Shown here piece by piece: positions 9,499 through 26,317 of a stretch of DNA of 64,000 nucleotides. The DNA lies in contig CBDDCA010000003.1 in the NCBI GenBank assembly GCA_965226055.1, forward strand, positions 32,001 through 96,000. Reading direction: 5' to 3'. This DNA comes from Spirochaetia bacterium. Its GTDB lineage: Bacteria; Spirochaetota; Spirochaetia; WTKD01; G963693115. The notes under the pieces are model-generated. The model searched no databases. It saw nothing but the letters and a program-made list of their open reading frames with translations, and was not told the DNA's origin. The stretch's first letter is position 1; each line of letters begins with the position of its first letter. A program made the translations under genes and the position numbers.

Positions 9499-9537
9499 GG
9501 AATTTCACTATCTCATGTATACCTTTGGTAGCACTCA
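9499..9537 (+). repeat. att-like site A (left island boundary)
   Basis: GGAATTTCAC-TATCTCATGTATACCTTTG-GTAGCACTCA. Homology to the other copies continues only rightward. Confidence 0.75.
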
Positions 9538-9614
9538 ATTCAGATATTTTATGTAATTAGTACTTAAAATTGAGGATAGCAGGCTATTTTTTAAAAAAAA
9601 TAGGTGTTCTGCTA

Positions 9615-9643
9615 TTGCGGTTTTTTTTTTTTTATTGTATAAT
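9615..9643 (+). promoter_or_regulatory. Sigma70-type promoter with T13 tract in a 17-bp spacer
   Basis: TTGCGG (9615-9620), T13-ATTG, TATAAT (9638-9643). AAGGAG RBS before ATG 9696. Confidence 0.75.
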
Positions 9644-9695
9644 ATAGCTATATTTATAAAAAATTCAAGTATTAAATTTGAAAAAGGAGCAAAAT

Positions 9696-9868
9696 ATGAA
9701 AAAAAATCGTATATGGTTTGTTATTTTATGTTTTCAGCGATGTTTTTTAATGCTACCGCTTTTAAGCAAGATTTAGAAGCATGGGGGAAACACATAGGCA
9801 AAAAAAGAGTATTTAAGGCAAATATGTTTTATGGGAGTGGAGTAAAAACACCACCAACATGGCATTAA
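9696..9868 (+). pseudogene. Internally deleted DUF285/BspA-type surface protein gene (signal-peptide start fused out of frame to the C-terminal cap)
   Basis: MKKNRIWFVIL resembles [10 protein letters not shown] of 17332. In another frame [20 protein letters not shown]...MFYGSGVKTPPTWH matches the C-terminus of 17332..19143. Confidence 0.8.
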
Positions 9869-9936
9869 AATATAGAGGTAGGGATGGTAGAACTTTCTTA
9901 CACTTTGAAAAAGAATAATTTTAATAGGAGGCAAAA

Positions 9937-12900
9937 ATGAAATTATTGAATATATCATATATATTTTTTATCGTTTTTGTGTTTTCACTTTTCACTTGTG
10001 AAAATGACAATGTAGGAAGCGGAGGAAGTAACAACGCTATTGATTTAAGTAGTGTGGCATCTCCCCCGCTAGATGTAACGAATATTACTAACAGTATTGT
10101 GAATGGTAATATTGTGTTAAAGTGGCAAGTTCCAGCCCTTACTACTAATCTTAAAAGGAAAGATGGCAAAACACTCACAAAGGCAGATATATCTTACAAA
10201 GTGTATCGAGTAGTAAAGGGAGCAAAGAGCCGAACAATAGCCCAGATTAAAACAGTGGATAAAAAACCGATAACAGTAGCAAAGGGAACAACAAGTACAA
10301 CTATAAGTAATCTTACTGGAAATACAACATACGAGATAGTAGTGCAGGCAGTAAATTCTACAGATACCACAAAAGTCTCTACAGGAGTGAGAGCAGAAGT
10401 TACTACTTTATCCTCTGCAACTGCTCCCGCAGAAGTAAGCACTATTACTGCAGGCAGTACAACGGCTAGCAGTACAGTTATATCATGGACAGCCCCAACG
10501 CTTGATACTAGCCACAAGAAAGCAGACGGCACAGCACTGACAAAGGCAGATGTGTCTTACAAAGTGTATCGAGTAGCAAAGGGAAGCGATGAGCGAACAG
10601 TAGCACAAATAAAATCAGCAGACACAAGCCCGCTAGCAGTAGCAAAGGGAACAACAAGTACAACTATAAGTAACCTTACAGGCAGTACAACATACGAGAT
10701 AGTAGTGCAGGCAGTCAATTCTACTGATGCCACAAAAGCCTCTATAGGCAAGAGAATAGAAGTTACTACTACTGTTATAATAAATCAAGCCACCGCACCC
10801 GCAGAGGCAAGCACTATTACTGCAGGCAGTACAACAGCTAGCAGTACAGTTATATCATGGACAGCTCCAACGCTTGATACTAGCCACAAGAAAGCAGACG
10901 GCACAGCACTGATAAAGGCAGATGTATCTTACAAAGTGTATCGAGTAGCAAAAGGAAGCGATGAGCGAACAGTGGCACAGATTAAGACAGCAGATACAAG
11001 CCCGCTAGCAGTAGCAAAGGGAACAACAAGTACAACTATAAGTAACCTTACAGGGAATACAACATACGAGATAGTAGTGCAGGCAGTAAATTCTACTGAT
11101 ACCACAAAAGCCTCTATAGGCAAGAGAATAGAAGTTACTACCACGAACCCTGCAACTGCCCCCGCAGAAGTAAGTGCTATTACTGCAGGCAGTACAACGG
11201 CTAGCAGTACAACGCTATCATGGACAGCCCCCACGCTTGATACTAGTCACAAGAAGGCAGACGGCACAGCACTGACAAAGGCAGATGTGTCTTACAAAGT
11301 GTATCGAGTAGCAAAAGGAAGCGATGAGCGAACAGTAGCACAGATTAAGACAGCAGACACAAGCCCGCTAGCAGTAACAAAGGGAACTATAAGCAAAACT
11401 ATAAATAACCTTACAGGCAGTACAACATACGAGATAGTAGTGCAGGCAGTCAATTCTACCGATATCACAAAAGCCTCTACAGGCAAGAGAATAGAAGTTA
11501 CTACTCTAAACCCCGCAAATGCCCCAACAGAAGTAAGCACTATTACTGCAAGCAGTACAACAGCTAGCAGTACAGTTATATCATGGACAGCTCCAACGCT
11601 TACTACTAGCCATAAGAAAGCGGACGGGGGAAGGCTTACAACGGCAGATGTATCTTACAAAATATATCGAGTAGCAAAGGGAAGCAAAGCCCGAACAGTA
11701 GCAGAGATTAAGAGAGTAGACCCGACTCCACTAAAAGTAACAAAGGGAACAACCCGTATAACTATAACAAACCTTAATTATAATACCGCCTATGAAATAG
11801 TAGTACAAGCAGTCAATTCTACTGATACTACAAAAGTCTCTACAGGAATACGAAAAGAAGTTACTACTAATCGTATACCTAATATAGCCACCGCCCCAAC
11901 AGAAGTAACCAATATCACCGCAGGCAGTACAACGGCTAGCAGTACAGTTATATCATGGACAGCCCCCACCCTAACAAACAGTCACAAGAAAGCAAACGGA
12001 CAAAATCTTACAACGGCAGATGTATCTTACAAAATATATCGGGTAGCGAAGGGAAGCGATGAGCGAACAGTAGCCCAGATTAAAACAGCAGACACGACTC
12101 CGATCGCAGTAGCAAAGGGAACAACAAGAACAACTATAAGTAACCTTACAGGAAGTACAATATACGAGATAGTAGTGCAGGCAGTCAATTCTACCGATAC
12201 CACAAAAGTCTCTACAGGAGTGAGAGCAGAAGTTACTACTCTAAACCCCGCAAATGCTCCCGCAGAAGTAAGCAATGTTACTGCTGGAAGTACTACCGAT
12301 AAAAGAATAGAAGTAACATGGCAAGCACCAACGCTTACTAATGATCACAAGAAGGCAAACGGAGAAACACTAACAACGGCAGATGTATTTTATAAAGTGT
12401 ATCGAGTAGCAAAAGGAAGCGATGAGCGAACAGTAGCAGAGATTAAAACAGCAGACACAAGCCCGTTAGAAGTAGCACGGGGAATAACTACTGTATTTAT
12501 ACCCAACCTTACAGGCAGTACAACATACGAGATAGTAGTGCAGGCAGTCAATTCTACCGATACCACAAAAGCCTCTACAGGAGTGAGAGCAGAAGTTACT
12601 ACTACTAACCCTGCAAATGCTCCCGCTGAAGTAAGCAATATTACTGTAGGCAGTACAACGGCTAGCAGTACAACGCTTTCATGGACAGCCCCCACGCTTG
12701 ATAATAGCCACAAAAAAGCAAACGGAGAAACACTTACAACGGCAGATGTGTCTTATAAAGTGTATCGTGTTGCAAAAGGAAAGAATGCCCGAGATGTAGC
12801 AGAGATTAAGACAGCGGATAAAAGCCCGTTAGCAGTAGCAAAGGGAACTATAAGCAAAACTATAAATAACCTTGCAGGCAGTACAACTTATGAGATAGTA

Positions 12901-15900
12901 GTACAAGCAGTCAATTCTACTGATACCACAAAAGCCTCTACAGGAGTGAGAGCAGAAGTTACTACTTTATCCTCTGCAACAGCCCCCGCAGAAGTAAGCA
13001 ATGTTAGTGCAGGAAGCACAACTGCTAGCAGTACAGTTATATCATGGACAGCCCCCACGCTTGATAATAGCCATAAAAAAGCAGACGGTACAGCACTGAC
13101 AAAGGCAGATGTGTCTTACAAAGTGTATCGAGTAGCAAAGGGAAGCGATGAGCGAACAGTAGCAGAGATTAAGACAGCGGATAAAAGCCCGCTAGCAGTA
13201 ACAAAAGGAACTATAAGCAAAACTATAAATAACCTTACAGGCAGTACAACATACGAGATAGTAGTGCAGGCAGTCAATTCTACCGATACCACAAAAGTCT
13301 CTACAGGCAAGAGAATAGAAGTAACAACCTCAAACCCCGCAAATGCCCCCGCAGAAGTAAGCAATGTTAGTGCAGGAAGCACAACTGCTAGCAGTACAGT
13401 TATATCATGGACAGCCCCAACGCTTGATACTAGCCACAAGAAAGCAGATGGCACAGCACTGACAAAGGCAGATGTGTCTTACAAAGTGTATCGAGTAGCA
13501 AAGGGAAGCGATGAGCGAACAGTAGCAGAGATTAAGACAGCGGATAAAAGCCCGCTAGCAGTAACAAAAGGAACTATAAGCAAAACTATAAGTAACCTTA
13601 CAGGCAGTACAACATACGAGATAGTAGTGCAGGCAGTCAATTCCACCGATACCACAAAAGTCTCTACAGGAGTGAGAGCAGAAGTTACTACTTTATCCTC
13701 TGCAACTGCTCCCGCAGAAGTAAGCAATGTTAGTGCAGGAAGCACAACTGCTAGCAGTACAGTTATATCATGGACAGCACCAACGCTTGATACTAGCCAT
13801 AAGAAAGCAGACGGCACAGCACTAACAAAGGCAGATGTGTCTTACAAAGTGTATCGAGTAGCAAAAGGAAAGAATGCCCGAGATGTAGCAGAAATTAAGA
13901 CAGCGGATAAAAGCCCGTTAGCAGTAACAAAGGGAACTATAAGCAAAACTATAAGTAACCTTACAGGCAGTACAACATACGAGATAGTAGTGCAGGCAGT
14001 CAATTCTACCGATACCACAAAAGCCTCTACAGGCAAGAGAATAGAAGTTACTACTCTAAACCCCGCAAATGCCCCCGCAGAAGTAAGCAATGTTAGTGCA
14101 GGAAGCACAACTGCTAGCAGTACAGTTATATCATGGACAGCCCCCACGCTTGATAATAGCCATAAAAAAGCAGACGGTACAGCACTGACAAAGGCAGATG
14201 TGTCTTACAAAGTGTATCGAGTAGCAAAGGGAAGCGATGAGCGAACAGTAGCAGAGATTAAGACAGCGGATAAAAGCCCGCTAGCAGTAACAAAAGGAAC
14301 TATAAGCAAAACTATAAATAACCTTACAGGCAGTACAACATACGAGATAGTAGTACAAGCAGTAAATTCTACTGATACCACAAAAGTCTCTACAGGAGTG
14401 AGAGCAGAAGTTACTACTTTATCCTCTGCAACTGCTCCCGCAGAAGTAAGCAATGTTAGTGCAGGAAGCACAACTGCTAGCAGTACAACAATATCATGGA
14501 CAGCCCCAACGCTTGATAATAGCCACAAGAAAGCAGACGGCACAGCACTAACAAAGGCAGATGTGTCTTACAAAGTGTATCGAGTAGCAAAAGGAAAGAA
14601 TGCCCGAGATGTAGCAGAGATTAAGACAGCAGATAAAAGCCCGTTAGCAGTAACAAAAGGAACTATAAGCAAAACTATAAGTAACCTTACAGGCAGTACA
14701 ACATACGAGATAGTAGTACAGGCAGTCAATTCTACCGATACCACAAAAGCCTCTACAGGCAAGAGAATAGAAGTTACTACTACCAACCCCGCAAATGCTC
14801 CCGCAGAAGTAAGCAATATTACTGCAGGCAATCTTATTGCAGGCACTCCCTACAGCACTGGTATTACTATATCATGGACAGCCCCAACGCTTGATAATAG
14901 CCACAAGAAAGCAGATGGCACAGCACTGACAACGGCAGATGTATCTTACAAAGTGTATCGAGTGGCAGAAAGATGGAATAACCCCCGAACAGTAGCACAG
15001 ATTAAAACAGCAGACACAAGCCCGCTAGAAGTAACACAGAATACAACAAGTATAAATATAACTAATCTTGTTTTGTACGAAACATACGAGATAGTAGTGC
15101 AGGCAGTCAATTCTACCGATACCACAAAAATCTCTACAGGAATAAAGAAAAACATTACTCTCAATAGTAACGCCACTGATCCCGCAGAAGTAAACAATGT
15201 TACAGGAACTCCCGCTGATAAATCTGCAAGAATATCGTGGGAAGCTCCAACACTCAAAAGCAGTCACAAAAAATCAGACGGAACACAACTAACAACGGCA
15301 GAGGTATCGTATAAGGTATATGCAGCGAGAAGGAAAAGAGATGAGTACGGAGTTTATTACAAAGAACGCACAGTAGCACAAATTATAGCAGGTGGTCACC
15401 CAATTAGTTTACCCGCAGGAACTACAAGTACGAATATTAATACTATTGCAAAAGATATAGTTTTTATACCTAAAAATAAATACGAGATAGTAGTGCAAGC
15501 AGTAAATGTCACCGATACGTCAAAAGTCTCTACAGGAGTAAGAATAGAAATAACTACCATTTCTACTAATCACGCCACCGCCCCGCCAGACCCCCGCAGT
15601 GTTTTAAGCTATGCAGCAAAGCCATCTAATAGAGCAGTAACAATATCATGGATAACTTCAACGCTTACTAATAATCATAAGAAACCAGACGGCACGAAAT
15701 TAGCGAAAACAGATATAGATTACTATGTATATCATTTAGAAAAGGCCAGCATTTCTAAAACAGTAGAACAAATTAAAAACAGAAAGCCAATCCCTATACT
15801 AGTACTCAATGGAGCTACAAATGTAGTTATTTCTAATCTTAAGCCCAATACTACCTATGAGGTAGTAGTGCAGGCAGTCAACTCTATTGATACAAGAAAA

Positions 15901-16248
15901 AAATCTACAGGCATACGAATAGAAGTTACTACTTTAGTAACGCTTAATGAATTAGTATTTAAGGTAAAGGGAAATAAAGTTACTTATGAATGGGTACATT
16001 ACCCTGAAACTGCAAATATTGAAATAGAACAAACGCCATACGCAACAGGTAAATATTCAATAAGTCCCAACCTCACAGCAGACACTGGACTGTCCTTTGA
16101 TACAAAAACAGGCAGGATATACGGACAACCCACGAAATCGCTTAAAACCTTCAATGCTCGTAAATACTACACAGTAAAATTTACTGCAAACGATGGACGA
16201 ATAGCACGGGGTACAATTCTCTTAAAAGTAACAAGAAATAACTACTAA
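9937..16248 (+). CDS. Giant surface (lipo)protein: 16 tandem fibronectin type III-like modules plus C-terminal putative Ig domain
   Basis: AGGAGG RBS, signal peptide ending LFTC, 16 copies of W-x-x-P...Y-x-VY...NL...YE(I/V)VVQAVN, C-terminal YSISPNL...GLSFDTKTGRIYGQP (He_PIG-like). Confidence 0.9.
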   Translation: MKLLNISYIFFIVFVFSLFTCENDNVGSGGSNNAIDLSSVASPPLDVTNITNSIVNGNIVLKWQVPALTTNLKRKDGKTLTKADISYKVYRVVKGAKSRTIAQIKTVDKKPITVAKGTTSTTISNLTGNTTYEIVVQAVNSTDTTKVSTGVRAEVTTLSSATAPAEVSTITAGSTTASSTVISWTAPTLDTSHKKADGTALTKADVSYKVYRVAKGSDERTVAQIKSADTSPLAVAKGTTSTTISNLTGSTTYEIVVQAVNSTDATKASIGKRIEVTTTVIINQATAPAEASTITAGSTTASSTVISWTAPTLDTSHKKADGTALIKADVSYKVYRVAKGSDERTVAQIKTADTSPLAVAKGTTSTTISNLTGNTTYEIVVQAVNSTDTTKASIGKRIEVTTTNPATAPAEVSAITAGSTTASSTTLSWTAPTLDTSHKKADGTALTKADVSYKVYRVAKGSDERTVAQIKTADTSPLAVTKGTISKTINNLTGSTTYEIVVQAVNSTDITKASTGKRIEVTTLNPANAPTEVSTITASSTTASSTVISWTAPTLTTSHKKADGGRLTTADVSYKIYRVAKGSKARTVAEIKRVDPTPLKVTKGTTRITITNLNYNTAYEIVVQAVNSTDTTKVSTGIRKEVTTNRIPNIATAPTEVTNITAGSTTASSTVISWTAPTLTNSHKKANGQNLTTADVSYKIYRVAKGSDERTVAQIKTADTTPIAVAKGTTRTTISNLTGSTIYEIVVQAVNSTDTTKVSTGVRAEVTTLNPANAPAEVSNVTAGSTTDKRIEVTWQAPTLTNDHKKANGETLTTADVFYKVYRVAKGSDERTVAEIKTADTSPLEVARGITTVFIPNLTGSTTYEIVVQAVNSTDTTKASTGVRAEVTTTNPANAPAEVSNITVGSTTASSTTLSWTAPTLDNSHKKANGETLTTADVSYKVYRVAKGKNARDVAEIKTADKSPLAVAKGTISKTINNLAGSTTYEIVVQAVNSTDTTKASTGVRAEVTTLSSATAPAEVSNVSAGSTTASSTVISWTAPTLDNSHKKADGTALTKADVSYKVYRVAKGSDERTVAEIKTADKSPLAVTKGTISKTINNLTGSTTYEIVVQAVNSTDTTKVSTGKRIEVTTSNPANAPAEVSNVSAGSTTASSTVISWTAPTLDTSHKKADGTALTKADVSYKVYRVAKGSDERTVAEIKTADKSPLAVTKGTISKTISNLTGSTTYEIVVQAVNSTDTTKVSTGVRAEVTTLSSATAPAEVSNVSAGSTTASSTVISWTAPTLDTSHKKADGTALTKADVSYKVYRVAKGKNARDVAEIKTADKSPLAVTKGTISKTISNLTGSTTYEIVVQAVNSTDTTKASTGKRIEVTTLNPANAPAEVSNVSAGSTTASSTVISWTAPTLDNSHKKADGTALTKADVSYKVYRVAKGSDERTVAEIKTADKSPLAVTKGTISKTINNLTGSTTYEIVVQAVNSTDTTKVSTGVRAEVTTLSSATAPAEVSNVSAGSTTASSTTISWTAPTLDNSHKKADGTALTKADVSYKVYRVAKGKNARDVAEIKTADKSPLAVTKGTISKTISNLTGSTTYEIVVQAVNSTDTTKASTGKRIEVTTTNPANAPAEVSNITAGNLIAGTPYSTGITISWTAPTLDNSHKKADGTALTTADVSYKVYRVAERWNNPRTVAQIKTADTSPLEVTQNTTSINITNLVLYETYEIVVQAVNSTDTTKISTGIKKNITLNSNATDPAEVNNVTGTPADKSARISWEAPTLKSSHKKSDGTQLTTAEVSYKVYAARRKRDEYGVYYKERTVAQIIAGGHPISLPAGTTSTNINTIAKDIVFIPKNKYEIVVQAVNVTDTSKVSTGVRIEITTISTNHATAPPDPRSVLSYAAKPSNRAVTISWITSTLTNNHKKPDGTKLAKTDIDYYVYHLEKASISKTVEQIKNRKPIPILVLNGATNVVISNLKPNTTYEVVVQAVNSIDTRKKSTGIRIEVTTLVTLNELVFKVKGNKVTYEWVHYPETANIEIEQTPYATGKYSISPNLTADTGLSFDTKTGRIYGQPTKSLKTFNARKYYTVKFTANDGRIARGTILLKVTRNNY
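10057..15935 (+). repeat. Intragenic ~363-bp tandem repeat (16 units) with a 726-bp higher-order period
   Basis: Near-identical units. The variant GCAAAAGGAAAGAATGCCCGAGATGTAGCAGA recurs at 12772, 13861 and 14587. Confidence 0.9.
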
Positions 16249-16275
16249 TACATATATATTGTATATAATTAAGTA

Positions 16276-16356
16276 GTGTAATGATGGTAGAATTTGTATA
16301 TTTTTCTCCTAATAAATGCAGATATTAGAGTATAATTTTTTCTATCATCTTTACAC
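16276..16356. repeat. 81-bp imperfect hairpin element
   Basis: GTGTAATGATGGTAGAA...TTCTATCATCTTTACAC arms with central AATGCAGAT. Homologous to 19158-19240. Confidence 0.7.
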
Positions 16357-16391
16357 TTTGAAAAAGAATAATTTTTGAATAGGAGGCTGCA

Positions 16392-16971
16392 ATGAAATTA
16401 TTGAATGGTATCATATTATATTTTTATCGTTCTTGTGTTTTTACTGTTTACTTGCGAAGGCAACAAGGTAGGTAGCACTAAAGGTAACCCTGCCACCGCA
16501 CCGCCAGAGGCAAGCAGTGTTACAGGAAGTCCCACCGATAACAGTGTAAGGGTATCATGGACAGCTCCAACGCTTGATAATAATCATAAGACAGCAGACA
16601 CAAGCCCGCTAGCAGTAGCAAAGGGAACAACAAGTATAAATATAACTAATCTTACAACTACTACCACCTATGAAGTAGTAGTACAGGCAGTCAATGCAAC
16701 AGATACCACAAAAGTCTCTACAGGAATAAAAACAGAAGTAACTACTCTTAGTTCTCTTAATTTAGTTTTGAAGAAAGGCAGTACTATAGAAACAGAAGTA
16801 AACATAAGGATAAATTCTGTTGGTGTTAATGTTCGTTCAATAGTAACACCGAATGTAAGTGGTACATTTTTTATTTCTCCTAATTTAACGAAAAATACTG
16901 GAATTTTATTTAATACTAATACTGGCATACTATCGGGGTTAGTACATTTAAGTAGTATTTTACTATATTGA
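16392..16971 (+). pseudogene. Degenerate FN3 + Ig surface protein gene (5' end like 9937, 3' end like 19503)
   Basis: AGGAGG + ATGAAATTATTGAAT as in 9937, then a +1 frameshift. In-frame 96-bp deletion in the FN3 module. 85-bp deletion relative to 25998-26082. Confidence 0.8.
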
Positions 16972-17003
16972 TATGATTAAATATATGGTACTTTAGTATT
17001 ACC

Positions 17004-17042: not shown

Positions 17043-17134
17043 TTACCGAAAGCAAAAGAGCTAATTTTTATAAAATCGGTAAGTATTTATTGCAGGTACA
17101 TATAAAATAACTTCTACTAAGCATATTTGAGAAA

Positions 17135-17173
17135 GGAGTTTTGTTATCTCATGTATACCTTTGGTAGCACTCA
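17135..17173 (+). repeat. att-like site B (internal junction)
   Basis: GGAGTTTTGT-TATCTCATGTATACCTTTG-GTAGCACTCA, with shared flanks on both sides. Confidence 0.75.
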
Positions 17174-17250
17174 ATTCAGATATTTTATGTAATTAGTACT
17201 TAAAATTGAGAATAGAAGGCCATCTCTTTAAAAAAACAGGTGTTTTGGTA

Positions 17251-17279
17251 TTGCGTTTTTTTGTATTTCTTTGTATATT
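17251..17279 (+). promoter_or_regulatory. Sigma70-type promoter, 17-bp spacer with interrupted T tract
   Basis: TTGCGT-17 bp-TATATT, positionally homologous to 9615 and 19421. Confidence 0.65.
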
Positions 17280-17331
17280 ATATCTATCTTTATTCAAAAT
17301 TCAAGCGTTAAGTTTGAAAAAGGAGAAAAAT

Positions 17332-19143: not shown

Positions 19144-19157
19144 AGTATAGTAAACTT

Positions 19158-19240
19158 GTGTAGGGATGAGAAATATAAAATCTTTATTATATTACTAATG
19201 CAGATGTTTGTTATTCTTATCTTTTCAATCATCCCTACAC
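19158..19240. repeat. 83-bp imperfect hairpin element
   Basis: GTGTAGGGATGA...TCATCCCTACAC perfect 12-bp arms with central AATGCAGAT. Confidence 0.7.
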
Positions 19241-19305
19241 TTTAGTAAGTTTATATAAGATGAGAAAACTGTTATTACTATTACAAATTGAGCATATTTG
19301 AGAAA

Positions 19306-19344
19306 GGAGTTTTGCTATCTCGTGTATACCTTTGGTAAAACTCC
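19306..19344 (+). repeat. att-like site C (internal junction, most symmetric copy)
   Basis: GGAGTTTTGC-TATCTCGTGTATACCTTTG-GTAAAACTCC; the arms are 9/10 inverted. Confidence 0.75.
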
Positions 19345-19420
19345 ATTCAGATATTTTATGTAAATAGCACTTAAAATTGAGAATAAAAGGCTATTTTTTA
19401 AGAAAATAGGTGTTTTGCTA

Positions 19421-19451
19421 TTGCGGTTTTTTTTTTTTTTTGTTGTATAAT
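19421..19451 (+). promoter_or_regulatory. Sigma70-type promoter with T15 tract in a 19-bp spacer
   Basis: TTGCGG (19421-19426), T15-GTTG, TATAAT (19446-19451). Confidence 0.75.
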
Positions 19452-19502
19452 AATATATCTGCATCTAAAATGCAAGTATTAAGTTTGAAAAAGGAGTAAA
19501 AT

Positions 19503-22500
19503 ATGAAAATAAACCATATATATTTTATTGTTTTTAGTGTTTTTATTATTTTGATAAGTGCTTGTGAAGCTGATATCTCGACTAGCTCTAGTAGTGGGGG
19601 GAGTACACTATCTTCTGCAACTGCACCATTAGAGGTAAGCAATGTTACAGGAAATCCTACCGACAGAAGTATTATATTGAAGTGGCAAGCCCCAACGCTT
19701 ACAAGCAGTCATAAGAAAGCAGACGGAACACAGCTAACAAAGGCAGATGTATCGCATAAGGTTTTTATAGTAGAAAAAGGATCACAGAGCCGAACAGTAG
19801 AGAATATTATAGCTTTAGATAAATCGCCTATTGAGGTAAAAAAAGGAATAGTAACAGTAAATATAAATGATCGAAAGCCCAATACCACCTATGAAATAGT
19901 AGTACAAGCGGTCAATTCTACCGATACCACAAAAGTCTCTAAAGGAATGAGAGTAGAAGTGACTACCCTTACCACTGATCACGCAACAGCACCTCCAGAA
20001 GCAAGCGATGTTACAGGAAGTCCTATCGATACAAGTGCAAGAATAACATGGCAAGCCCCAAATCTTACCGATAGCCATAAGAAAGCAGATGGCACAGCAC
20101 TCACAACGGCAGATGTATCGTACAAAGTGTATCGGGTAGCAAAGGGAAGCGATGAGCGAACAGTAGCAGAGATTAAGACAGCAGATAAGACTCCGCTTGA
20201 AGTAGCAAAAGGAACGACAAGTATAAATATAACTAACCTTAATAAAAATACTGCTTATGAAGTAGTAGTACAATCAGTCAATTCCACCGATACCACAAAA
20301 GTCTCTACAGGAGTAAGAATAGAAGTAACTACCCTTGCACAGAATCATGCAACCGCACCAGCAGATGCAAGCAGTGTTGCAGGAAGCCCAGACAATGACA
20401 GTGTAGCGGTATCATGGCAAGCCCCAAATCTTACCGATAGCCATAAGAAAGCAGACGGCACACAACTCACAACGGCAGATGTATCTTACAAAGTATACCG
20501 AGTAGCAAAGGGAAGCGATGAGCGAACAGTAGCAGAGATTAAAACAGCAGACACGACACCGATTGAAGTAGCAAAAGGAACAACAAGCACAACTATAAAT
20601 AATCTTATTGGAAGTACTACCTATGAAATAGTAGTACAAGCAGTCAATTCCACCGACTCTACAAAAGCCTCTACAGGCATACGAATAGAAGTAGCTACCA
20701 CGAACCCCGCCACTGCACCAGCAGACGCCCGCAGTGTTGCAGGAAGCCCAGCCGATACCAGCGCAAGAATAACATGGCAAGCGCCAGCGCTTACAGGCAG
20801 TCATAAAAAAGCAAACGGACAAAGACTCACAGAGGCAGATGTATCTTACAAAGTATACCGAGTAGTAAAGGGAAACGGTGTCCGAACAGTAGCAGCGATT
20901 AAAACAGCAGATAATAACCCGCTAGCAGTAGCAAAGGGAACAACAAGTACAAATATAACCAGTCTTACCCCTGCTACCACCTATGAAATAGTGGTACAAG
21001 CAGTCAATTCCACCGATACCACAAAAGTCTCTACAGGCAAACGAATAGAAGTAACTACCCTTGCAAATAATCACGCAACAGCACCAGCAGACGCAAGCAG
21101 TGTTGTAGGAAGCCCAGCCGATGACAGTGTAGGGGTATCATGGCAAGCCCCAGCCTTTACAAGTAGTCATAAGAAAGCAGACGGAACACAACTCACAAAG
21201 GCAGATGTATATTACAAAGTATACCGAGTAGTAAAGGGAGCAAAGAGCAGAACAATAGCAGAGATTAAAGAAGCAGACAAGACCCCGATGGAAGTAGCAA
21301 AGGGAACAACAAGCACAACTATAACTAATCTTACAGGAAGTACCACCTATGAAATAGTAGTACAAGCAGTCAATTCCACCGACTCTACAAAAGCCTCTAC
21401 AGGCATACGAATAGAAGTAGCTACCACGAACCCCGCCACTGCACCAGCAGACGCCCGCAGTGTTACCGCAGGAAGCACGACAGCCTCAAGTACAACTTTA
21501 TCGTGGACAGATCCAACGCTTACTACTAGCCACAAGAAAGCAAATGGACAAAGACTCACAACGGCAGATGTATCGTACAAAGTATATCGTGTAGCAAAAG
21601 GAAGGAATGCTCGAACAATAGCAGAGATTAAAACAGCAGATGGGACACCGCTAGCAGTAGCAAAGGGAACAAAAAGCACAACTATAACTAATCTTACAGG
21701 AAGTACTACCTATGAAATAGTAGTACAAGCAATCAACTCCACCGATACTACAAAAGTCTCTACAGGAGTGAGAATAGAAGTGACTACCACGAACCCTGCC
21801 ACCGCGCCAGCAGATGCAAGCAGTGTTGCAGGAAATCCAACTGATGACAGTGTAGCGGTATCATGGACAGCCCCAGCTCTTACAAGCAGTCACAAGAAAG
21901 CAGATGGAACGAAACTCACAAAGGCAGATGTATCTTACAAAGTATATCGAGTAGCAAAGAATGGAGCAAACACTCGATCAATAGCACAGATTATAACAGC
22001 AGACAAGACCCCGCTTGAAGTAGTAAAAGGAACAACAAGTGCAACTATAACTAATCTTACCCCTAGTACCACCTATGAAATAGTAGTACAAGCGATCAAT
22101 TCTACCGATACCACAAAAACCTCTACAGGAGTAAGAATAGAAGTAACTACCGATAACCTTGCCACCGCACCAGCAGAGGCAAGTAGTGTTACAGGAAGCC
22201 CAACCGATACTAGTGCAAGAATAACATGGCAAGCTCCAACGCTTACTACTAGCCATAAGAAAGCAGACGGACAAAGACTCACAACGGCAGATGTATCTTA
22301 CAAAGTGTATCGAGTAGCAAAAGGAAGCGATGCCCGAACAATAGCAGAGATTAAAACAGCAGATAAGAACCCGCTAGCAGTAGCAAGGGGAACAACAAGC
22401 ACAACTATAACCAGTCTTACCCCTAATACCACCTATGAAATAGTAGTACAAGCAGTCAATTTTACCGATACTACAAAAGTCTCTACAGGCAAACGAATAG

Positions 22501-25500
22501 AAGTAACTACCGTTGCACAGAATCATGCAACAGCACCAGCAGACGCAAGCAATGTGAGAGGAATCCCAGACGATGACAGTATAGCGGTATCATGGCAAGC
22601 CCCAACGCTTACCGATAGCCACAAGAAACCAGACGGAACACAACTAACACAGGCAGATGTATACTACAAAGTATATCGTGCAGTAAAAGGAGCAAAGAGC
22701 CGAACAATAGCAGAGATTAAAACAGCAGATAAGACTCCGATAGCAGTAGCAAAAGGAATAACAAGTACAACTATAACTAATCTTACAGGAAGTACTACCT
22801 ATGAAGTAGTGGTACAAGCAGTCAATTTCATCGATACTACAAAAGCCTCTACAGGCATACGAATAGAAGTAGTCACCACTAACCCCGCCACTGCACCAGC
22901 GGACGCAAGCAATGTGAGAGGAAGCTCTACCGATACAAGTGCAAGAATAACATGGCAAGCCCCAGCACTTGATACTAGCCACAAAAAAGCAAACGGACAA
23001 AGCCTCACCACAGCAGATGTATCGTACAAAGTGTATCGGGTAGCAAAAGGAAAGAATGCTCGAACTATAGCAGCGATTAAAACAGCAGATAAGAACCCGA
23101 TAGCAGTAGCAAAAGGAAAAACAAACACAAGTATAACTAATCTTACCCCTATTACCACCTATGAAATAGTAGTGCAGGCAGTTAATACAACAGATATAAC
23201 AAAAGCCTCTACAGGAGTGAGAATAGAAGTGACTACCAAGAACTCAGCAACCGCACCGTCAGAGGCAAGCAGTATTACAGGAAGCCTAAACGATGATGGG
23301 AGTGTAACGGTATCATGGACAGCCCCCACGCTTACAAGCAGTCACAAGAAAGCAAACGGACAAGCACTCACAAAAGCAGATGTATCGTACAAAGTGTATC
23401 GTGTAGAAAGGGGGGGGCGATTCAGAACAGTAGCAGCGATTAAAGCAGCAGATCCGAACCCGCTAGCAGTAGGAAAAGGAACAACAAGTATAAATATAAC
23501 TAATCTTAAGTCTAATGCTACCTATGAAGTAGTAGTGCAAGCAATCAATTCCACCGATACCACAAAAGTCTCTACAGGAGTCAAAGAATTTGTATTTGTC
23601 ACTAATCGTGCCACCGCACCGCCAGACATATCTAGTGTGGTGACAGGTAAAACTGATAACAGCATAACACTAAACTGGTCAATTTTGCCTAGAGATAGTC
23701 ATCAAAAGAGAAACGGACAAAGACTCACAGCGTCAGATATATCTTATAAAGTATATCGTGTAGTAAAGGGAGCAAAGAGCCGAACAATAGCAGCGATTAA
23801 AGCAGCAGATAGGACCCCGCTAGCAGTAGCAAAGGGAACAACAAGTATAAATATAACTAATCTTAATGAAAATACCACCTATGAAATAGTAGTACAAGCA
23901 GTCAATTCCACTGATACCACAAAAGTCTCTACAGGAGAAAAAGTAGAACTAACTACCACTAATAATGCCACTGCACCGCCAGATGCTCGTAGTGTTACAG
24001 GAAGCCCAATCGATGACAGTATAACGGTATCATGGACAGCTCCAGATCTTACAAGCAGTCACAAAAAAACAGACGGACAAGCACTCACAGCGGCAGATGT
24101 ATTGTATAAAGTATATCATATAGCAAAAGGAAAGGATGCCCGAACAATAGCAGAGATTAAAGCAGCAGATAAGAACCCGCTAGCAGTAGCAAAAGGAACA
24201 ACAAGCACAACTATAACTAATCTTACTGGAAGTACTACCTATGAAATAGTAGTACAAGCAGTCAATTCCACCGCTATTGCAAAAGTCTCTACAGGAGTAA
24301 GAATAGAAGTAACTACCACTAACTTAGCAACCGCACCAGCAGACGTCCGCGATGTTACCGCAGAAAGTCTTATTGATACCAGTGCAACTATATCATGGAA
24401 AGATCCTGTTCTTACTAATAGTCACAAGAAATCAGACGGACAAACACTCACAACGGCAGATGTATCGTATAAAGTGTATCGTGTGGTAAAGGGAGGCAGT
24501 GCCCGAACAATAGCAGCGATTAAAGCAGCAGATAATAACCCGCTAGCAGTAGCAAAGGGAATAACAAATACAAATATAACTAATCTTACCCATAATACTA
24601 CCTATGAAGTAGTAGTACAAGCAGTCAATTCCACCGCTATTGCAAAAGTCTCTACAGGAGTAAGAGTAGAAGTAACTACCACTAATAATGCCACCGCACC
24701 GCCAGATGCTCGCAGTGTTACAGTAGTAAGATCAACTGATGACAGTGTAGAGATATCATGGCAAGCCCCAAATCTTACTGCTAGTCACAAGAAAACAAAC
24801 GGGCAAAGGCTTACAGAGGCAGATGTATCGTACAAAGTATATCGTGTAACAAAGGGAAAGAATGCCCGATCAATAGCAGCGATTAAAACAGCAGATAATA
24901 ACCCGATAGCAGTAGCAAAGGGAACAACAAGTACAACTATAACTAATCTTACATTTAGTACCACCTATGAAATAGTAGTACAGGCAGTCAATGCAACATA
25001 TACCACAAAAGTCTCTACAGGAATAAAAACAGAAGTAACTACTGTGTCCTATGCAACCGAACCAGCAGATGCCCGCAATGTTACCGCAGCAAGTATTACC
25101 AATAAAGCTGTAAAGGTATCATGGCAAGTCCCAGATATTACCGATAGTCACAAGAAACCAGACGGAACACAACTAACACAGGCAGATGTATCGTATAAGG
25201 TATATCATGTAGCAAAAAAGGGAACAAAGAAACGAACAGTAGCAGAGATTATAGCAGCAGATACTAGCCCGATAGAAGAAGCAGCAGTAGCAAAAGGAAC
25301 GACAAGCACAAATGTAGATATAACTAATCTTACATTTAATACCACCTATGAAATAGTAGTACAAGCAATCAATACAACAGATACTACAAAAGTTTCTACA
25401 GGGGTAAGAGTAGAAGTAATTGCTAACCCAGCAACAGCTCCCCCAGAGGTAAATAATATTGTAAAAGACCCTACAGATATCAATATAGAACTAGAGTGGA

Positions 25501-26099
25501 CAGCTCCCACGCTTACAAGCAGTCACAAAAAAACAGACGGACAAGCATTAACAAAGGCAGATCTATCCTACAAAATTTACGCTTTAGAAAAAGGAGCAAG
25601 AAGCCGATCAATAGCAGCAATTAAAGCAACAGGTTTTATTCACGAATTACTAAAAGGATTAACAGTTGCAAATATATCTTTACTTCTTAGTGCTGATAAA
25701 GACGTACCCTTGAAGCCTAACACTACCTATGAAATAGTAATACAGGCAGTCAATTCCACCGATCCCACAAAAGTCTCTACAGGCAAACGAATAGAAGTAA
25801 CTACTCTTAGTTCTCTTAATTTAGTTATGAAGAGAGGCAATACTATAGTAACAAACTTACACATAAAGGTAGATTCTGTTGGTGTTAATATTCGTTCAGT
25901 AGTAACACCGAGTGTAAGTGGTATATTTTTTATTACTCCTGATTTAACGCAAAATACTGGAATTTTATTTAATACTAATACTGGCGTACTATCGGGGAAA
26001 GCAAAAAAACTTGCATCAAAGAAAACATATACAATAGTCTTTACTGCATCAGATGGACGATTAGCACGTACTTCTTTTAGTGTTAGTACATTTAGGTAG
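19503..26099 (+). CDS. Giant surface lipoprotein: 17 tandem FN3-like modules plus C-terminal putative Ig domain
   Basis: AAGGAG RBS, lipobox LISAC, 17 YE(I/V)V(V/I)Q modules, C-terminal FFITPDL...GILFNTNTGVLSG...TYTIVFTASDG. Confidence 0.9.
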   Translation: MKINHIYFIVFSVFIILISACEADISTSSSSGGSTLSSATAPLEVSNVTGNPTDRSIILKWQAPTLTSSHKKADGTQLTKADVSHKVFIVEKGSQSRTVENIIALDKSPIEVKKGIVTVNINDRKPNTTYEIVVQAVNSTDTTKVSKGMRVEVTTLTTDHATAPPEASDVTGSPIDTSARITWQAPNLTDSHKKADGTALTTADVSYKVYRVAKGSDERTVAEIKTADKTPLEVAKGTTSINITNLNKNTAYEVVVQSVNSTDTTKVSTGVRIEVTTLAQNHATAPADASSVAGSPDNDSVAVSWQAPNLTDSHKKADGTQLTTADVSYKVYRVAKGSDERTVAEIKTADTTPIEVAKGTTSTTINNLIGSTTYEIVVQAVNSTDSTKASTGIRIEVATTNPATAPADARSVAGSPADTSARITWQAPALTGSHKKANGQRLTEADVSYKVYRVVKGNGVRTVAAIKTADNNPLAVAKGTTSTNITSLTPATTYEIVVQAVNSTDTTKVSTGKRIEVTTLANNHATAPADASSVVGSPADDSVGVSWQAPAFTSSHKKADGTQLTKADVYYKVYRVVKGAKSRTIAEIKEADKTPMEVAKGTTSTTITNLTGSTTYEIVVQAVNSTDSTKASTGIRIEVATTNPATAPADARSVTAGSTTASSTTLSWTDPTLTTSHKKANGQRLTTADVSYKVYRVAKGRNARTIAEIKTADGTPLAVAKGTKSTTITNLTGSTTYEIVVQAINSTDTTKVSTGVRIEVTTTNPATAPADASSVAGNPTDDSVAVSWTAPALTSSHKKADGTKLTKADVSYKVYRVAKNGANTRSIAQIITADKTPLEVVKGTTSATITNLTPSTTYEIVVQAINSTDTTKTSTGVRIEVTTDNLATAPAEASSVTGSPTDTSARITWQAPTLTTSHKKADGQRLTTADVSYKVYRVAKGSDARTIAEIKTADKNPLAVARGTTSTTITSLTPNTTYEIVVQAVNFTDTTKVSTGKRIEVTTVAQNHATAPADASNVRGIPDDDSIAVSWQAPTLTDSHKKPDGTQLTQADVYYKVYRAVKGAKSRTIAEIKTADKTPIAVAKGITSTTITNLTGSTTYEVVVQAVNFIDTTKASTGIRIEVVTTNPATAPADASNVRGSSTDTSARITWQAPALDTSHKKANGQSLTTADVSYKVYRVAKGKNARTIAAIKTADKNPIAVAKGKTNTSITNLTPITTYEIVVQAVNTTDITKASTGVRIEVTTKNSATAPSEASSITGSLNDDGSVTVSWTAPTLTSSHKKANGQALTKADVSYKVYRVERGGRFRTVAAIKAADPNPLAVGKGTTSINITNLKSNATYEVVVQAINSTDTTKVSTGVKEFVFVTNRATAPPDISSVVTGKTDNSITLNWSILPRDSHQKRNGQRLTASDISYKVYRVVKGAKSRTIAAIKAADRTPLAVAKGTTSINITNLNENTTYEIVVQAVNSTDTTKVSTGEKVELTTTNNATAPPDARSVTGSPIDDSITVSWTAPDLTSSHKKTDGQALTAADVLYKVYHIAKGKDARTIAEIKAADKNPLAVAKGTTSTTITNLTGSTTYEIVVQAVNSTAIAKVSTGVRIEVTTTNLATAPADVRDVTAESLIDTSATISWKDPVLTNSHKKSDGQTLTTADVSYKVYRVVKGGSARTIAAIKAADNNPLAVAKGITNTNITNLTHNTTYEVVVQAVNSTAIAKVSTGVRVEVTTTNNATAPPDARSVTVVRSTDDSVEISWQAPNLTASHKKTNGQRLTEADVSYKVYRVTKGKNARSIAAIKTADNNPIAVAKGTTSTTITNLTFSTTYEIVVQAVNATYTTKVSTGIKTEVTTVSYATEPADARNVTAASITNKAVKVSWQVPDITDSHKKPDGTQLTQADVSYKVYHVAKKGTKKRTVAEIIAADTSPIEEAAVAKGTTSTNVDITNLTFNTTYEIVVQAINTTDTTKVSTGVRVEVIANPATAPPEVNNIVKDPTDINIELEWTAPTLTSSHKKTDGQALTKADLSYKIYALEKGARSRSIAAIKATGFIHELLKGLTVANISLLLSADKDVPLKPNTTYEIVIQAVNSTDPTKVSTGKRIEVTTLSSLNLVMKRGNTIVTNLHIKVDSVGVNIRSVVTPSVSGIFFITPDLTQNTGILFNTNTGVLSGKAKKLASKKTYTIVFTASDGRLARTSFSVSTFR
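19615..25805 (+). repeat. Intragenic ~360-366-bp tandem repeat (17 units)
   Basis: Same family as the repeats in 9937..16248, more diverged among units. Confidence 0.9.
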
Positions 26100-26147
26100 T
26101 ATTTTACTATATTGATATGATTACATATATGGTACTTTAGTATTACC

Positions 26148-26186
26148 TTTAGTAGACACAGCATTATTTATGCTGTGTCTACTAAA
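26148..26186. terminator. Perfect 17-bp inverted repeat, copy 2
   Basis: Identical to 17004-17042, about 50 bp after the stop codon. Confidence 0.7.
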
Positions 26187-26278
26187 TTACCGAAAGCAAA
26201 AGAGCTAACTTTTACAAAATCGGTAAGTATTTATTGTAGGTACATATAAAATAACTCCTACTAAGCATATTTGAGAAA

Positions 26279-26317
26279 GGAGTTTTGCTATCTCGTGTAT
26301 ACCTTTGTTAAAAGTAC
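26279..26317 (+). repeat. att-like site D (right island boundary)
   Basis: GGAGTTTTGC-TATCTCGTGTATACCTTTG-TTAAAAGTAC. Homology to the other copies continues only leftward. Confidence 0.75.

What the first reader, a model, noticed from the sequence alone, without database searches (positions are those of the whole stretch)
9499..26317. Tandem surface-protein cassette array delimited by four att-like sites in attL/attP/attP/attR geometry
Seen: the 19-bp core TATCTC(A/G)TGTATACCTTTG occurs four times in direct orientation (9509, 17145, 19316, 26289), each inside ~10-bp arms. In copy C the arms are a 9/10 inverted repeat (GGAGTTTTGC/GTAAAACTCC). Both internal copies have the shared left flank (AGCATATTTGAGAAA) and the shared ~190-bp right flank with promoter and RBS. 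The first copy has only the right flank and the last only the left flank, so homology starts and stops at this site, exactly at the island edges. This defines three units (7636, 2171, 6973 bp), each running site, promoter, surface-protein gene(s), hairpin, site. Known: B-O-P', P-O-P', P-O-B' is what repeated site-specific integration of circles into one attB leaves. Inference: an integron-like but promoter-carrying system for gaining, losing or reordering adhesin cassettes next to yebC-ruvCAB, with a recombinase acting in trans. None is encoded in the window.
Basis: partly seen in the sequence, partly recalled or inferred. Interest (0 to 1): 0.85.

Follow-up and report, generated by a model that had tools for sequence, protein, structure and literature searches.

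The report
Transposon-end relics flanking surface-protein genes
The four repeated "attachment-like" sites around these giant surface-protein genes are leftover ends of a jumping gene that is still active elsewhere in the same spirochaete genome, so this is a transposon-marked gene array, probably reshaped by ordinary recombination, not a new integron-like system.

Summary
The 19-bp core occurs four times in direct orientation at the stated places, with the stated arms, flanks and unit lengths.

The interpretation does not hold as written. Arm plus core is homologous, tip to tip, to the terminal inverted repeat of a 1213-1215-bp DDE insertion sequence (HTH plus rve transposase, TG..CA tips, 14-15-bp target duplications). 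The IS has 5 full copies in this genome and at least 15 in the sister species. The left arm of B-D resembles the reverse complement of the IS right tip. The right arm of C equals that tip. The right arm of D resembles the inverted left tip.

In both species this relic end heads a conserved promoter and signal-peptide module of FN3/DUF285 lipoprotein paralogs, at dispersed loci too. The array is flanked by a 13/15 direct repeat of the IS's duplication length. Both genomes hold only two Xer-like tyrosine recombinases. Neither has a serine, IS110 or Y1 enzyme. The sister species has four genes here and no terminal core.

Best reading: an IS-end-bounded founder unit, amplified and reshuffled by recombination between the relic ends. 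Trans-mobilisation by the IS transposase remains possible.

The parts
9483..9497 (+). Left copy of the 15-bp direct repeat flanking the array (AGAAAAACAAAAAGG). It lies directly before the T of the TG tip.
   Evidence: It matches 26316-26330 at 13 of 15. The genome holds 49 copies of this 15-mer with up to 2 substitutions among 2,249,164 positions.
9499..9537 (+). Site A. Relic IS end of the right-end type (arm GGAATTTCAC, core, arm GTAGCACTCA), preceded by T, which gives a TG tip. It is the left edge of the island.
   Evidence: It has 28 matches in 41 columns against the reverse complement of the IS right end.
9538..9695 (+). Promoter and leader module A. It holds the palindrome CTATTTT..AAAATAG, then TTGCGG, T13 (9621-9633), TATAAT and the RBS AAAGGAG.
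   Evidence: The promoter assignment is by eye. The consensus scan of the C copy did not list it.
9696..9868 (+). Remnant of a DUF285 lipoprotein gene. The signal-peptide start is fused out of frame to the last 46 codons.
   Evidence: It shares 27 of 46 aa with the C-terminus of the 645-aa protein. The sister species has an intact 657-aa gene in this position.
9937..16248 (+). 2103-aa lipoprotein of FN3 repeats (363-nt units). It has its own RBS but no promoter module.
16405..16971 (+). 188-aa FN3 ORF, a shortened paralog of the C-terminal part of the 2198-aa gene.
   Evidence: fn3; 16587-16938 matches 24884-25043 and 25722-25997 at 89-92%.
17135..17173 (+). Site B, an internal relic IS end. 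To the left are the type-2 tail and the 15-nt flank, as at D. To the right, the first 47 nt are identical to A.
17332..19143 (+). FN3 + He_PIG + DUF285 lipoprotein, with ATG at 17332. The mechanical ORF list starts it at a TTG at 17206.
19306..19344 (+). Site C, an internal relic IS end (GGAGTTTTGC, core, GTAAAACTCC, then A). The right arm equals the last 10 nt of the IS.
   Evidence: The best local alignment of module C to the IS is tip to tip, with 29 identical of 37 columns.
19345..19502 (+). Promoter and leader module C, with a T15 tract at 19427-19441.
19503..26099 (+). 2198-aa FN3-repeat lipoprotein.
26100..26278 (+). Type-2 tail: the hairpin GACACAGCAT..ATGCTGTGTC, about 100 nt absent from the sister species, and the 15-nt flank AGCATATTTGAGAAA.
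26279..26318 (+). Site D. It joins 29 nt of the right-end-type relic to TTAAAAGTAC-A, which resembles the inverted left tip of the IS (GTAAAAGTACA). It is the right edge of the island.
26316..26330 (+). Right copy of the flanking direct repeat (ACAAAAATAAAAAGG). It overlaps the last 3 nt of the tip.

Best explanation
Each 'att-like site' is a roughly 40-bp relic of the end of an insertion sequence. The IS is a 1213-1215-bp element with an HTH + DDE (rve) transposase, TG..CA tips and 14-15-bp target duplications. It is alive in this genus.

The relic heads a conserved promoter and signal-peptide module, about 160 bp long, of a family of FN3/DUF285 surface lipoprotein genes.

The island between the DUF4468 gene and yebC began as a unit bounded by a right-end-type relic on the left (site A) and an inverted left-tip relic on the right (the end of site D). 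I infer that it was inserted by transposition before the two known species split.

The unit carried the relic in direct orientation at both ends. Unequal crossing-over between those short repeats, and afterwards between whole units, then made the tandem array. The internal sites B and C are therefore hybrids: the left context of D joined to the right context of A.

Later deletions, gene conversion and exchange with paralogs reshaped the units.

Shown: the homology of the sites to the IS ends, the live IS, the missing recombinases, and the differences from the sister species.

Inferred: the founding transposition, and the recombination route to the array.
For: 1. A complete IS in the sister genome has a perfect 22-bp terminal inverted repeat that resembles arm plus core.

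2. The 5 full copies in the own genome end in GTACTTTTAC... and ...GTAAAACTCC. All 5 carry 14-15-bp target duplications and TG..CA tips.

3. The best local alignment of module C to the whole IS, on either strand, runs from position 0 to position 0, with 29 identical of 37 columns. The score is 33, against 23.6 +/- 2.8 in 300 shuffles.

4. A profile built from 15 sites found 8 further loci with E<1. Three of them (C2:104521, C3:131681, C5:484225) have the same start and strand as IS ends found independently with an IS-end-only profile. A fourth (C6:823332) runs on into IS right-end interior sequence.

5. The relic heads the same module at dispersed paralogs. The sister species has 7 cores with up to 2 mismatches at 7 places. 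The own genome has 2 further copies on contig C5.

6. Array ends elsewhere carry a longer terminal element: about 19 nt of the relic followed by an inverted 34-38-nt IS left end that finishes in GTAAAAGTAC. This is seen at 4 of 4 such loci.

7. The array is flanked by 15-mers that match at 13 of 15, at the tips.

8. B combines D's left side (92-96%) with A's right side, whose first 47 nt are identical.

9. Each genome has only two tyrosine recombinases, in Xer-like housekeeping context, and no PF00239, PF01548 or PF01797.

10. The sister species has 4 genes at this locus and no terminal core. The own genome has an internally deleted first gene.
Against: 1. A narrow profile built from only 4 IS ends does not reach sites A-D at E<=1 genome-wide. 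By score alone the pairwise alignment is modest: one of 300 shuffles reached 37. The case rests on the tip-to-tip register and on intermediate copies.

2. The flanking repeat is A-rich. It is out of register with the canonical tip by 3 nt, and in the sister species it survives only in part.

3. D's right arm holds only 10-11 nt of the left tip. That is probably too little to be a working end.

4. A and D share only about 29-39 nt, which is short for RecA-type crossing-over.

5. In 2 of 2 runs from other studies, a contig that matches the tail of unit 3 stops matching the window at 26307 (X6) or 26295 (X7). That is at or inside core D. The contigs run on for 18 and 58 unlike letters, which the tool did not print. 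A breakpoint at the site fits recombination at the relic, but it fits a site-specific process equally well.

6. Why a promoter module should begin with an IS end is not explained.
Confidence: 0.6

Rival explanations
1. The lipoprotein units are non-autonomous cargo transposons, like mobile insertion cassettes. A relic right end and an inverted left end bound passenger genes. The resident IS transposase moves or copies them in trans. The array grew by repeated insertion next to, or into, an existing end.
For: - A live IS with matching tips is present, with 5 and at least 15 full copies.
- A flanking repeat of the right length sits at the array (13 of 15) and at the C5 unit (12 of 15, abutting TG.. 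and ..CA).
- Units present only in the sister species break from the own genome within 3 nt of the tip in 2 of 4 loci, L007 and L010.
- Terminal elements carry a 34-38-nt inverted left end.
- One IS copy sits inside a promoter module, with a perfect 15-bp duplication.
Against: - No clean duplication was found for any of the 5 dispersed or arrayed initial sites examined in the sister species.
- The flanks of the C5 unit differ in the sister species, so its 12 of 15 match may be chance.
- In 2 of 4 loci (L006, L009) the break lies 60-350 nt away from the tip.
- The right boundary at L010 is another mobile element, not this IS end.
- Internal junctions lack any inverted end. Internal left tips read AG, not TG.
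Confidence: 0.25
2. The sites are att-like, and cassettes are integrated and excised as circles by a site-specific recombinase acting in trans, in an integron-like manner.
For: - The hybrid-site geometry is real.
- The arms form an imperfect inverted repeat. One sister-species copy carries a compensatory change (GGAGCTTTGC/GTACAGCTCC).
- Contigs from two other studies diverge from the window at or inside core D.
Against: - The only tyrosine recombinases are two in Xer-like context. Neither genome, one of which is a single contig, has a serine, IS110 or Y1 enzyme.
- None of the 11 cores is an empty site. The sister species has no core at the yebC junction.
- The core is absent from the viral contigs. 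The 11 metagenome hits share no flanking sequence with the module.
- The site is explained by homology to IS ends.
- A 19-bp spacer between 10-bp arms is unlike tyrosine-recombinase core sites (recalled).
Confidence: 0.05
3. The site is mainly a regulatory or structural element of the promoter module, such as an upstream operator, an insulator hairpin or a leader. Selection keeps it. Its likeness to IS ends would arise because the IS targets or has captured such sequence, and the array would be plain tandem duplication.
For: - Homology of old dispersed paralogs begins within about 16 nt of the core in most copies, although their genes are only 77-80% identical. That fits constraint on the module.
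- The stem is kept in many copies.
- A 13-codon ORF (MYTFG..F.YFM) starts at the variable A/G of the core.
Against: - Solo copies sit after genes with no promoter behind them: D, and the long-form ends at 4 loci.
- There is no Rfam match above threshold.
- By my reading of the copies printed, the small ORF is broken or shifted in at least 3 of them, and its changes are not synonymous-biased.
- The tip-to-tip register with the IS is not expected for an operator.
Confidence: 0.1

Closest known systems
Solo inverted repeats, MITEs and mobile insertion cassettes (MICs) derived from insertion sequences. Source: passages of the ISsaga paper, PMC3129680. The Xanthomonas Tn3-like MIC paper PMC4337579 was seen only as a search listing and abstract start. 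MIC231 of Bacillus cereus is recalled.
   Same: IS ends without a transposase lie beside or around passenger genes. A cognate transposase is encoded elsewhere in the genome. The elements act as scars and as recombination substrates.
   Different: Here the relic is about 75% identical to the live IS ends. Only one full-length end heads each unit. The passengers are giant surface lipoprotein genes with their own promoter module, arranged head to tail. Mobility is not shown.
IS1202 family, ISTde1 subgroup, and the IS481 family. Source: passages of bioRxiv 10.1101/2022.12.17.520857.
   Same: A single HTH + DDE transposase distantly related to IS481 and IS3, a TGT tip at the left end, and target repeats of 15-17 bp. 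The own IS gives 14-15 bp in 5 of 5 copies. Some family members carry passenger genes.
   Different: The best NCBIfam model is IS481, at 107.7 bits against a cut-off of 224. The right tip reads TGG. I did not verify the family's transposase signature, and the 120 listed relatives carry no family name. Family placement is therefore open.
Integron cassettes with attC and attI sites (recalled).
   Same: Directly repeated imperfect-palindrome sites separate gene cassettes in one orientation at one locus.
   Different: There is no IntI-like integrase. The cassettes carry promoters. The sites are homologous to DDE-transposon ends. No empty site was found.
Tandem amplification by unequal crossing-over between flanking direct repeats such as IS copies or rrn operons (recalled general knowledge).
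   Same: It gives exactly the pattern seen here: x-R-unit, then flank-R-unit one or more times, then flank-R-y.
   Different: The repeats here are only about 40 bp long, and the units have since diverged into different genes.
Extragenic homology blocks that bound variable surface-protein genes in spirochaetes: the upstream and downstream homology sequences of Borrelia hermsii vsp/vlp, and the 17-bp repeats of vls cassettes (recalled; no paper read here).
   Same: Short conserved extragenic repeats mark the edges of exchangeable surface-lipoprotein genes in a spirochaete.
   Different: No expression-site and archive arrangement is seen. Every unit here has its own promoter module. The repeats derive from an IS.

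Membership tests
Integron-like or att-site cassette system | A dedicated site-specific recombinase (tyrosine, serine or IS110 type) in the genome | tested here: not met
   PF00589 gives 2 hits per genome, syntenic, beside ftsZ and a 296-aa ORF I take to be dprA. PF00239 and PF01548 give 0 of 2 genomes. The own genome is 89% complete. The sister genome is a single contig.
Integron-like or att-site cassette system | An empty target site (arm-core-arm without a cassette) in a related genome or elsewhere | tested here: not met
   None of 11 cores (4 own, 7 sister) is an empty site. The sister yebC junction has no core. The 11 metagenome hits have no flank homology, and the viral contigs give 0 hits.
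Integron-like or att-site cassette system | Excised circles, or cassette polymorphism with breakpoints only at the core | tested here: inconclusive
   Only contigs were available. Many joints lie inside the repeats. Two contigs diverge at or inside core D, and their onward letters were not shown.
Terminal inverted repeat of the resident DDE insertion sequence | Sequence homology to the IS end, in register with the tip | tested here: met
   Tip-to-tip alignment with 29 identical of 37 columns. Sites A-D give 28-31 matches of 41 columns against the right end, and 20-22 against the left end. Three of 8 site-profile hits are independent IS ends.
Terminal inverted repeat of the resident DDE insertion sequence | TG..CA tips | tested here: inconclusive
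   A is preceded by T, giving TG. C and D are followed by A, giving ..CA. B, C and D are preceded by A, giving AG. A and B end in ..CTCAA.
Terminal inverted repeat of the resident DDE insertion sequence | A cognate transposase present in the same genome | tested here: met
   There are 5 full-length open copies at 93-94% aa identity to the sister-species copy. Pfam finds HTH plus rve.
Mobile insertion cassette or cargo transposon | Inverted IS ends at both borders of the passenger DNA | tested here: inconclusive
   The left border is a relic of about 40 nt. The right border of the window array has only 10-11 nt of the inverted left tip. Long-form ends elsewhere have 34-38 nt.
Mobile insertion cassette or cargo transposon | A target-site duplication of the IS's length at the borders | tested here: inconclusive
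   The array gives 13 of 15 with a 3-nt offset. The C5 unit gives 12 of 15. No duplication was found for 5 initial sites in the sister species.
Mobile insertion cassette or cargo transposon | Presence/absence between genomes with the break exactly at the ends | tested here: inconclusive
   The left break lies within 3 nt of the tip in 2 of 4 loci (L007, L010), and 60-350 nt away in 2 (L009, L006). No right break lies at an IS end.
IS1202 family, ISTde1 subgroup | 15-17-bp direct repeats, TGT tips, and a DDE transposase with the family signature | tested here: inconclusive
   The repeats are 14-15 bp in 5 of 5 copies. The left tip is TGT and the right tip TGG. The signature residues were not verified. 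The best NCBIfam hit is IS481, below its cut-off.
Phase-variable promoter (homopolymer in the spacer) | Tract length that varies within a population and changes expression | not tested
   The tracts differ among paralogs: T13 in A, T7 interrupted in B, T15 in C. The rows shown list no length variant there, and many rows were cut.

The most novel reading that the evidence does not exclude
The giant FN3/DUF285 surface-lipoprotein genes of this spirochaete genus are passengers of non-autonomous transposons. Each is headed by a promoter module that begins with an IS end. The resident IS transposase, acting in trans, spreads them around the chromosome. It also drives cassette gain, loss and reordering at the 40-bp ends. 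That would be a transposase-powered surface-antigen cassette system.
Probability: 0.25. Interest if true: 0.7.

Novelty: new variant of a known kind. Interest (0 to 1): 0.45.

Why it matters
It replaces an attractive but unsupported model (a promoter-carrying, integron-like adhesin system) with a concrete and testable one. Short relics of a still-active insertion sequence mark the heads and ends of surface-protein gene units. They offer both homologous-recombination handles and possible transposase substrates.

If the transposase does act on them, this would be a rare case of very large surface-antigen genes moving as IS passengers in a host-associated spirochaete. If it does not, the locus is a clear worked example of how two flanking 40-bp repeats can mimic attL/attP/attR geometry.

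Tried and rejected
1. Metagenome scan for the core: 11 stretches, none sharing the module's flanks, so all are chance.

2. Viral contigs: 0 hits.

Among the loci fetched, only those from the one Spirochaetia record (the sister genome) matched the module over a stretch extending beyond the core. A single 23-nt, borderline match elsewhere in the module (L024, E 8e-4) looks like chance. The scan was therefore too loose to say much.

4. Rfam on the C and D regions: nothing near any gathering score.

5. IS200/IS605 or REP-RAYT idea. It was prompted by 'TTAC' before 7 of 9 initial sites and by the hairpins. I dropped it because neither genome has a Y1 transposase, and the TTAC is simply part of the DDE IS tip.

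6. Xer/dif idea. The central TGTATA looks dif-like, but the arms do not (by eye only). The real dif site was not located.

7. The small ORF in the core (MYTFG..) was judged to be chance.

8. Empty site in other genera. yebC is only 42-60% identical there and the DUF4468 gene is not adjacent, so there is no usable DNA comparison.

9. Target-duplication search around initial sites in the sister species: nothing at an IS tip.

10. The right boundary of the L007 difference was not found within the locus held.

11. Naming the IS through relatives: 327 proteins with E<=1e-5, of which 120 are listed. They are named only 'transposase' or carry no name.

12. Reads. All four runs were contigs that break at the repeats. 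No piece spans a unit. Depth and uncovered parts say nothing. Most rows of the joint and loose-end tables were cut.

13. Consensus promoter scan of the C region: it did not list the TTGCGG..TATAAT pair, and the 3 sites it found do not exceed shuffles.

14. One call failed on a parameter limit and was repeated within the limit.


Full report
OBSERVATION

The core TATCTC(A/G)TGTATACCTTTG occurs four times, all on the + strand, at 9509, 17145, 19316 and 26289. Shuffles give 0.00 expected. No further copy with up to 2 mismatches exists in the 2.25-Mb genome, which is in 6 contigs and 89% complete.

An alignment of the four sites with their flanks and pairwise counts give these figures:
- The 190 nt after the core are 84-86% identical among A, B and C, and unrelated (about 50%) at D.
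- The 226 nt before the core are 92% identical between B and D, and unrelated in every other pair. BLAST gives 96.5% over 226 nt including the core.
- B, C and D share the exact 15-nt flank AGCATATTTGAGAAA.

Contigs of public runs cross both edge junctions.

The genes are lipoproteins built of FN3 repeats (2103 and 2198 aa) and an FN3 + He_PIG + DUF285 protein.

Unit 1 is composite:
- After promoter A comes a signal-peptide start fused out of frame to the last 46 codons of a DUF285 gene (27 of 46 aa identical to the C-terminus of the 645-aa protein).
- Next comes the 2103-aa gene, which has only a ribosome-binding site.
- Last comes a 188-aa shortened copy of the tail of the 2198-aa gene.

THE SITE IS NOT CONFINED TO THIS LOCUS

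In the only other genome of the genus, a single 2.36-Mb contig titled as a Spirochaetia MAG, the core occurs 7 times with up to 2 mismatches, at 7 places over 770 kb.

The copies there fall as follows:
- Five of the seven (L005, L006, L008, L010 and L011) form the 5' edge of the same module. It holds a palindrome, a T tract between TTGCGG-like and TATAAT-like hexamers, AAAGGAG, ATG and a lipoprotein signal peptide. Paralogous FN3 genes follow it.
- L007 is a truncated solo module.
- L009 is interrupted by transposase fragments.

The own genome has two more diverged copies heading paralogs on contig C5, and a partial module without a core.

Among old dispersed paralogs, whose genes are 77-80% identical, homology starts within about 16 nt of the core. 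The exception is the pair L007/L009, which shares 60 nt more.

The syntenic locus of the sister species has four genes (657, 426, 1951 and 1955 aa), each behind a module. It has no core between the last gene and yebC. There the own genome carries about 100 extra nt, including site D.

WHAT THE SITE IS

A profile of 15 sites, searched over the own genome, picked up short loci unrelated to the lipoprotein genes. One lay in front of a truncated transposase ORF. That led to a complete element in the sister genome. It has a perfect 22-bp terminal inverted repeat, GTAGTTTTACCGTTTCGTGTGA, and a 373-aa ORF.

Properties of the element:
- The ORF has HTH domains and an rve integrase core.
- Its best NCBIfam model is IS481, at 107.7 bits against a cut-off of 224.
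- The sister genome holds 15 full-length matches. Seven of them carry one in-frame TAA near the 5' end of the matched frame. It also holds fragments. The own genome holds 5 full copies and one fragment, none of them in the window.
- The five own copies are 1212-1213 bp between GTACTTTTAC... and ...GTAAAACTCC.
- With the adjoining T and A the tips read TG..CA.
- All five are flanked by 14-15-bp duplications.

This explains the arms:
- The left arm of B, C and D (GGAGTTTTG[TC]) resembles the reverse complement of the IS right tip (GGAGTTTTAC).
- The right arm of C equals the IS right tip.
- The right arm of D (TTAAAAGTAC, then A) resembles the inverted left tip (GTAAAAGTACA).

The best local alignment of module C to the whole IS, on either strand, runs from the first base of the site to the first base of the reverse-complemented IS. 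It has 29 identical of 37 columns, and likeness stops after about 40 nt. The score is 33, against 23.6 +/- 2.8 in 300 shuffles (maximum 37). The score alone is modest. The exact tip-to-tip register is the stronger argument, and two further results support it:
- Three of the 8 non-module hits of the site profile are IS ends found independently, with the same start and strand.
- The copy at C6:823332 has a core-like first 28 nt and then IS right-end interior sequence.

Against this, a narrow profile built from four IS ends does not reach A-D at E<=1.

ARRAY ENDS ELSEWHERE

At four loci, three in the sister genome and one in the own genome, the tail and the same 15-nt flank are followed by about 19 nt of the relic and then an inverted 34-38-nt IS left end that finishes in GTAAAAGTAC. 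Homology stops there. Site D is a shorter version of this terminal element.

FLANKING REPEAT

The 15 nt before the TG tip of A (9483-9497) and the 15 nt at 26316-26330 match at 13 of 15. The right copy overlaps the last 3 nt of the tip. The genome holds 49 such near-matches among 2.25 million positions, which gives about 1.5e-4 for one falling within 3 nt of a given place.

The sequence is A-rich, and the sister species keeps only part of it. I therefore treat it as suggestive of a founding transposition that predates the species split.

A unit on contig C5 shows 12 of 15, abutting TG.. and ..CA. Its flanks differ in the sister species.

No such repeat was found for five initial sites in the sister species.

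Units present only in the sister species break from the own genome within 3 nt of the tip at 2 of 4 loci, and 60-350 nt away at the other two. The one right boundary I could find lies at a different mobile element.

ENZYMES

Each genome has two tyrosine recombinases, syntenic and about 2 kb apart. They lie beside ftsZ and a 296-aa ORF that I take, by eye, to be dprA. That is a housekeeping, Xer-like context.

Searches for serine recombinases, IS110 transposases and Y1 transposases found nothing in either genome, while the control genomes did respond.

HOW IT MOST LIKELY WORKS

A founder unit carried the relic in direct orientation at both ends, as A and D do now. Unequal crossing-over between two such repeats yields a tandem copy. 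Its junction joins D's left context to A's right context.

B looks exactly like that. Its left side matches D at 92-96%. Its core has the A variant, and the next 47 nt are identical to A.

The pattern 'x-site-module, flank-site-module, flank-site-y' therefore needs no site-specific recombinase.

Later changes are visible:
- an internal deletion of the first gene, where the sister species has an intact 657-aa gene;
- a shortened 188-aa gene;
- loss of the terminal site in the sister species, next to a TACAAAA microhomology;
- many joints inside the FN3 repeats in contigs from two other studies, which may also come from paralogs.

OPEN POINT

In both runs from other studies, a contig that matches the tail of unit 3 stops matching the window at 26307 or 26295. 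That is at or inside core D. The contigs run on with 18 and 58 letters that the tool did not print.

This may be cassette-number polymorphism at the relic.

COMPARISON WITH KNOWN SYSTEMS

Solo IRs, MITEs and mobile insertion cassettes are recognised IS derivatives that a cognate transposase can activate (passages of PMC3129680).

The ISTde1 subgroup of the IS1202 family has 15-17-bp target repeats, TGT tips and transposases distantly related to IS481 and IS3. Some members carry passenger genes (passages of bioRxiv 10.1101/2022.12.17.520857).

The comparisons with integrons and with Borrelia homology blocks are recalled, not read.

EARLIER NOTES OF THIS SCAN

Another reader flagged the same stretch as a paralogous FN3 lipoprotein locus with shared 5' and 3' modules. 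Other notes describe phase-variable lipoprotein families, and an IS30-family element with solo left-end stubs, elsewhere in this genome. A look-up by the transposase sequence found nothing.

VERDICT

The integron-like reading is not supported. The sites are relic IS ends that head the promoter modules of a surface-lipoprotein family. This is a new variant of a known kind and is of moderate interest. The bolder possibility, that the IS transposase mobilises these units, remains testable.

Noticed in passing
window 9609-9645, 17244-17285, 19415-19455: A T tract lies between a TTGCGG-like hexamer and a TATAAT-like hexamer in each module: T13 with a 17-nt spacer in A, T7 interrupted in B, and T15 with a 19-nt spacer in C. 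The sister-species copies carry tracts of other lengths. This looks like a slipped-strand promoter switch, a known kind. Variation within a population was not seen in the rows shown.
   Followed up: partly
L192 (G004:C1:655001-673000) 8447-9663: A full IS copy sits inside a lipoprotein promoter module, 115 nt after its relic end, with a perfect 15-bp duplication AAAAATAGGTATTTT. Several own-genome IS duplications look similar (AATAGGTATTTTTTA, AAAATAGCTTTTAT). The IS may prefer the module's palindrome region as a target and so switch these genes off.
   Followed up: partly
G000 contigs C6:929826, C5:470655, C3:131681, C3:11333, C3:6767, C6:445248, C6:522057, C2:104521, C5:130970, C5:221248, C5:520211 (all outside the window): There are many solo ends of the same IS, of both left and right type. 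Every one is preceded by T. IS decay is common in this genome.
   Followed up: partly
L188 (G004:C1:1412001-1432000), reverse strand, about 6700-7220 of the oriented sequence: A 7-kb segment holding an FN3 lipoprotein unit is present in the sister species beside a tRNA gene. In the own genome 10 nt take its place. Its right edge is a different transposase-like gene with a zinc-ribbon-like N-terminus.
   Followed up: partly
window 9868-9936 and 16249-16404: A second junction type links genes inside unit 1. It has a hairpin (GTAATGATGGTAGAA..TTCTATCATCTTTAC, truncated in the first copy), then ACTTTGAAAAAGAATAATTTT..AGGAGGC and ATGAAATTATTGAAT. These look like operon-style links without a promoter module.
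   Followed up: no
G000:C5:571381-571418, reverse strand: A 38-nt arm-loop-arm sequence like the sites (GTAGTTTTAC..GGTAAAGCTC) lies about 150 nt upstream of an unrelated small lipoprotein gene.
   Followed up: no
L128, G004:C1:1125843-1125881: One sister-species site has arms GGAGCTTTGC/GTACAGCTCC. Relative to site C, the change is on both sides of the stem and keeps the pair. The IS right end itself has a subterminal inverted repeat, so the stem may matter to the transposase or as a DNA hairpin.
   Followed up: no
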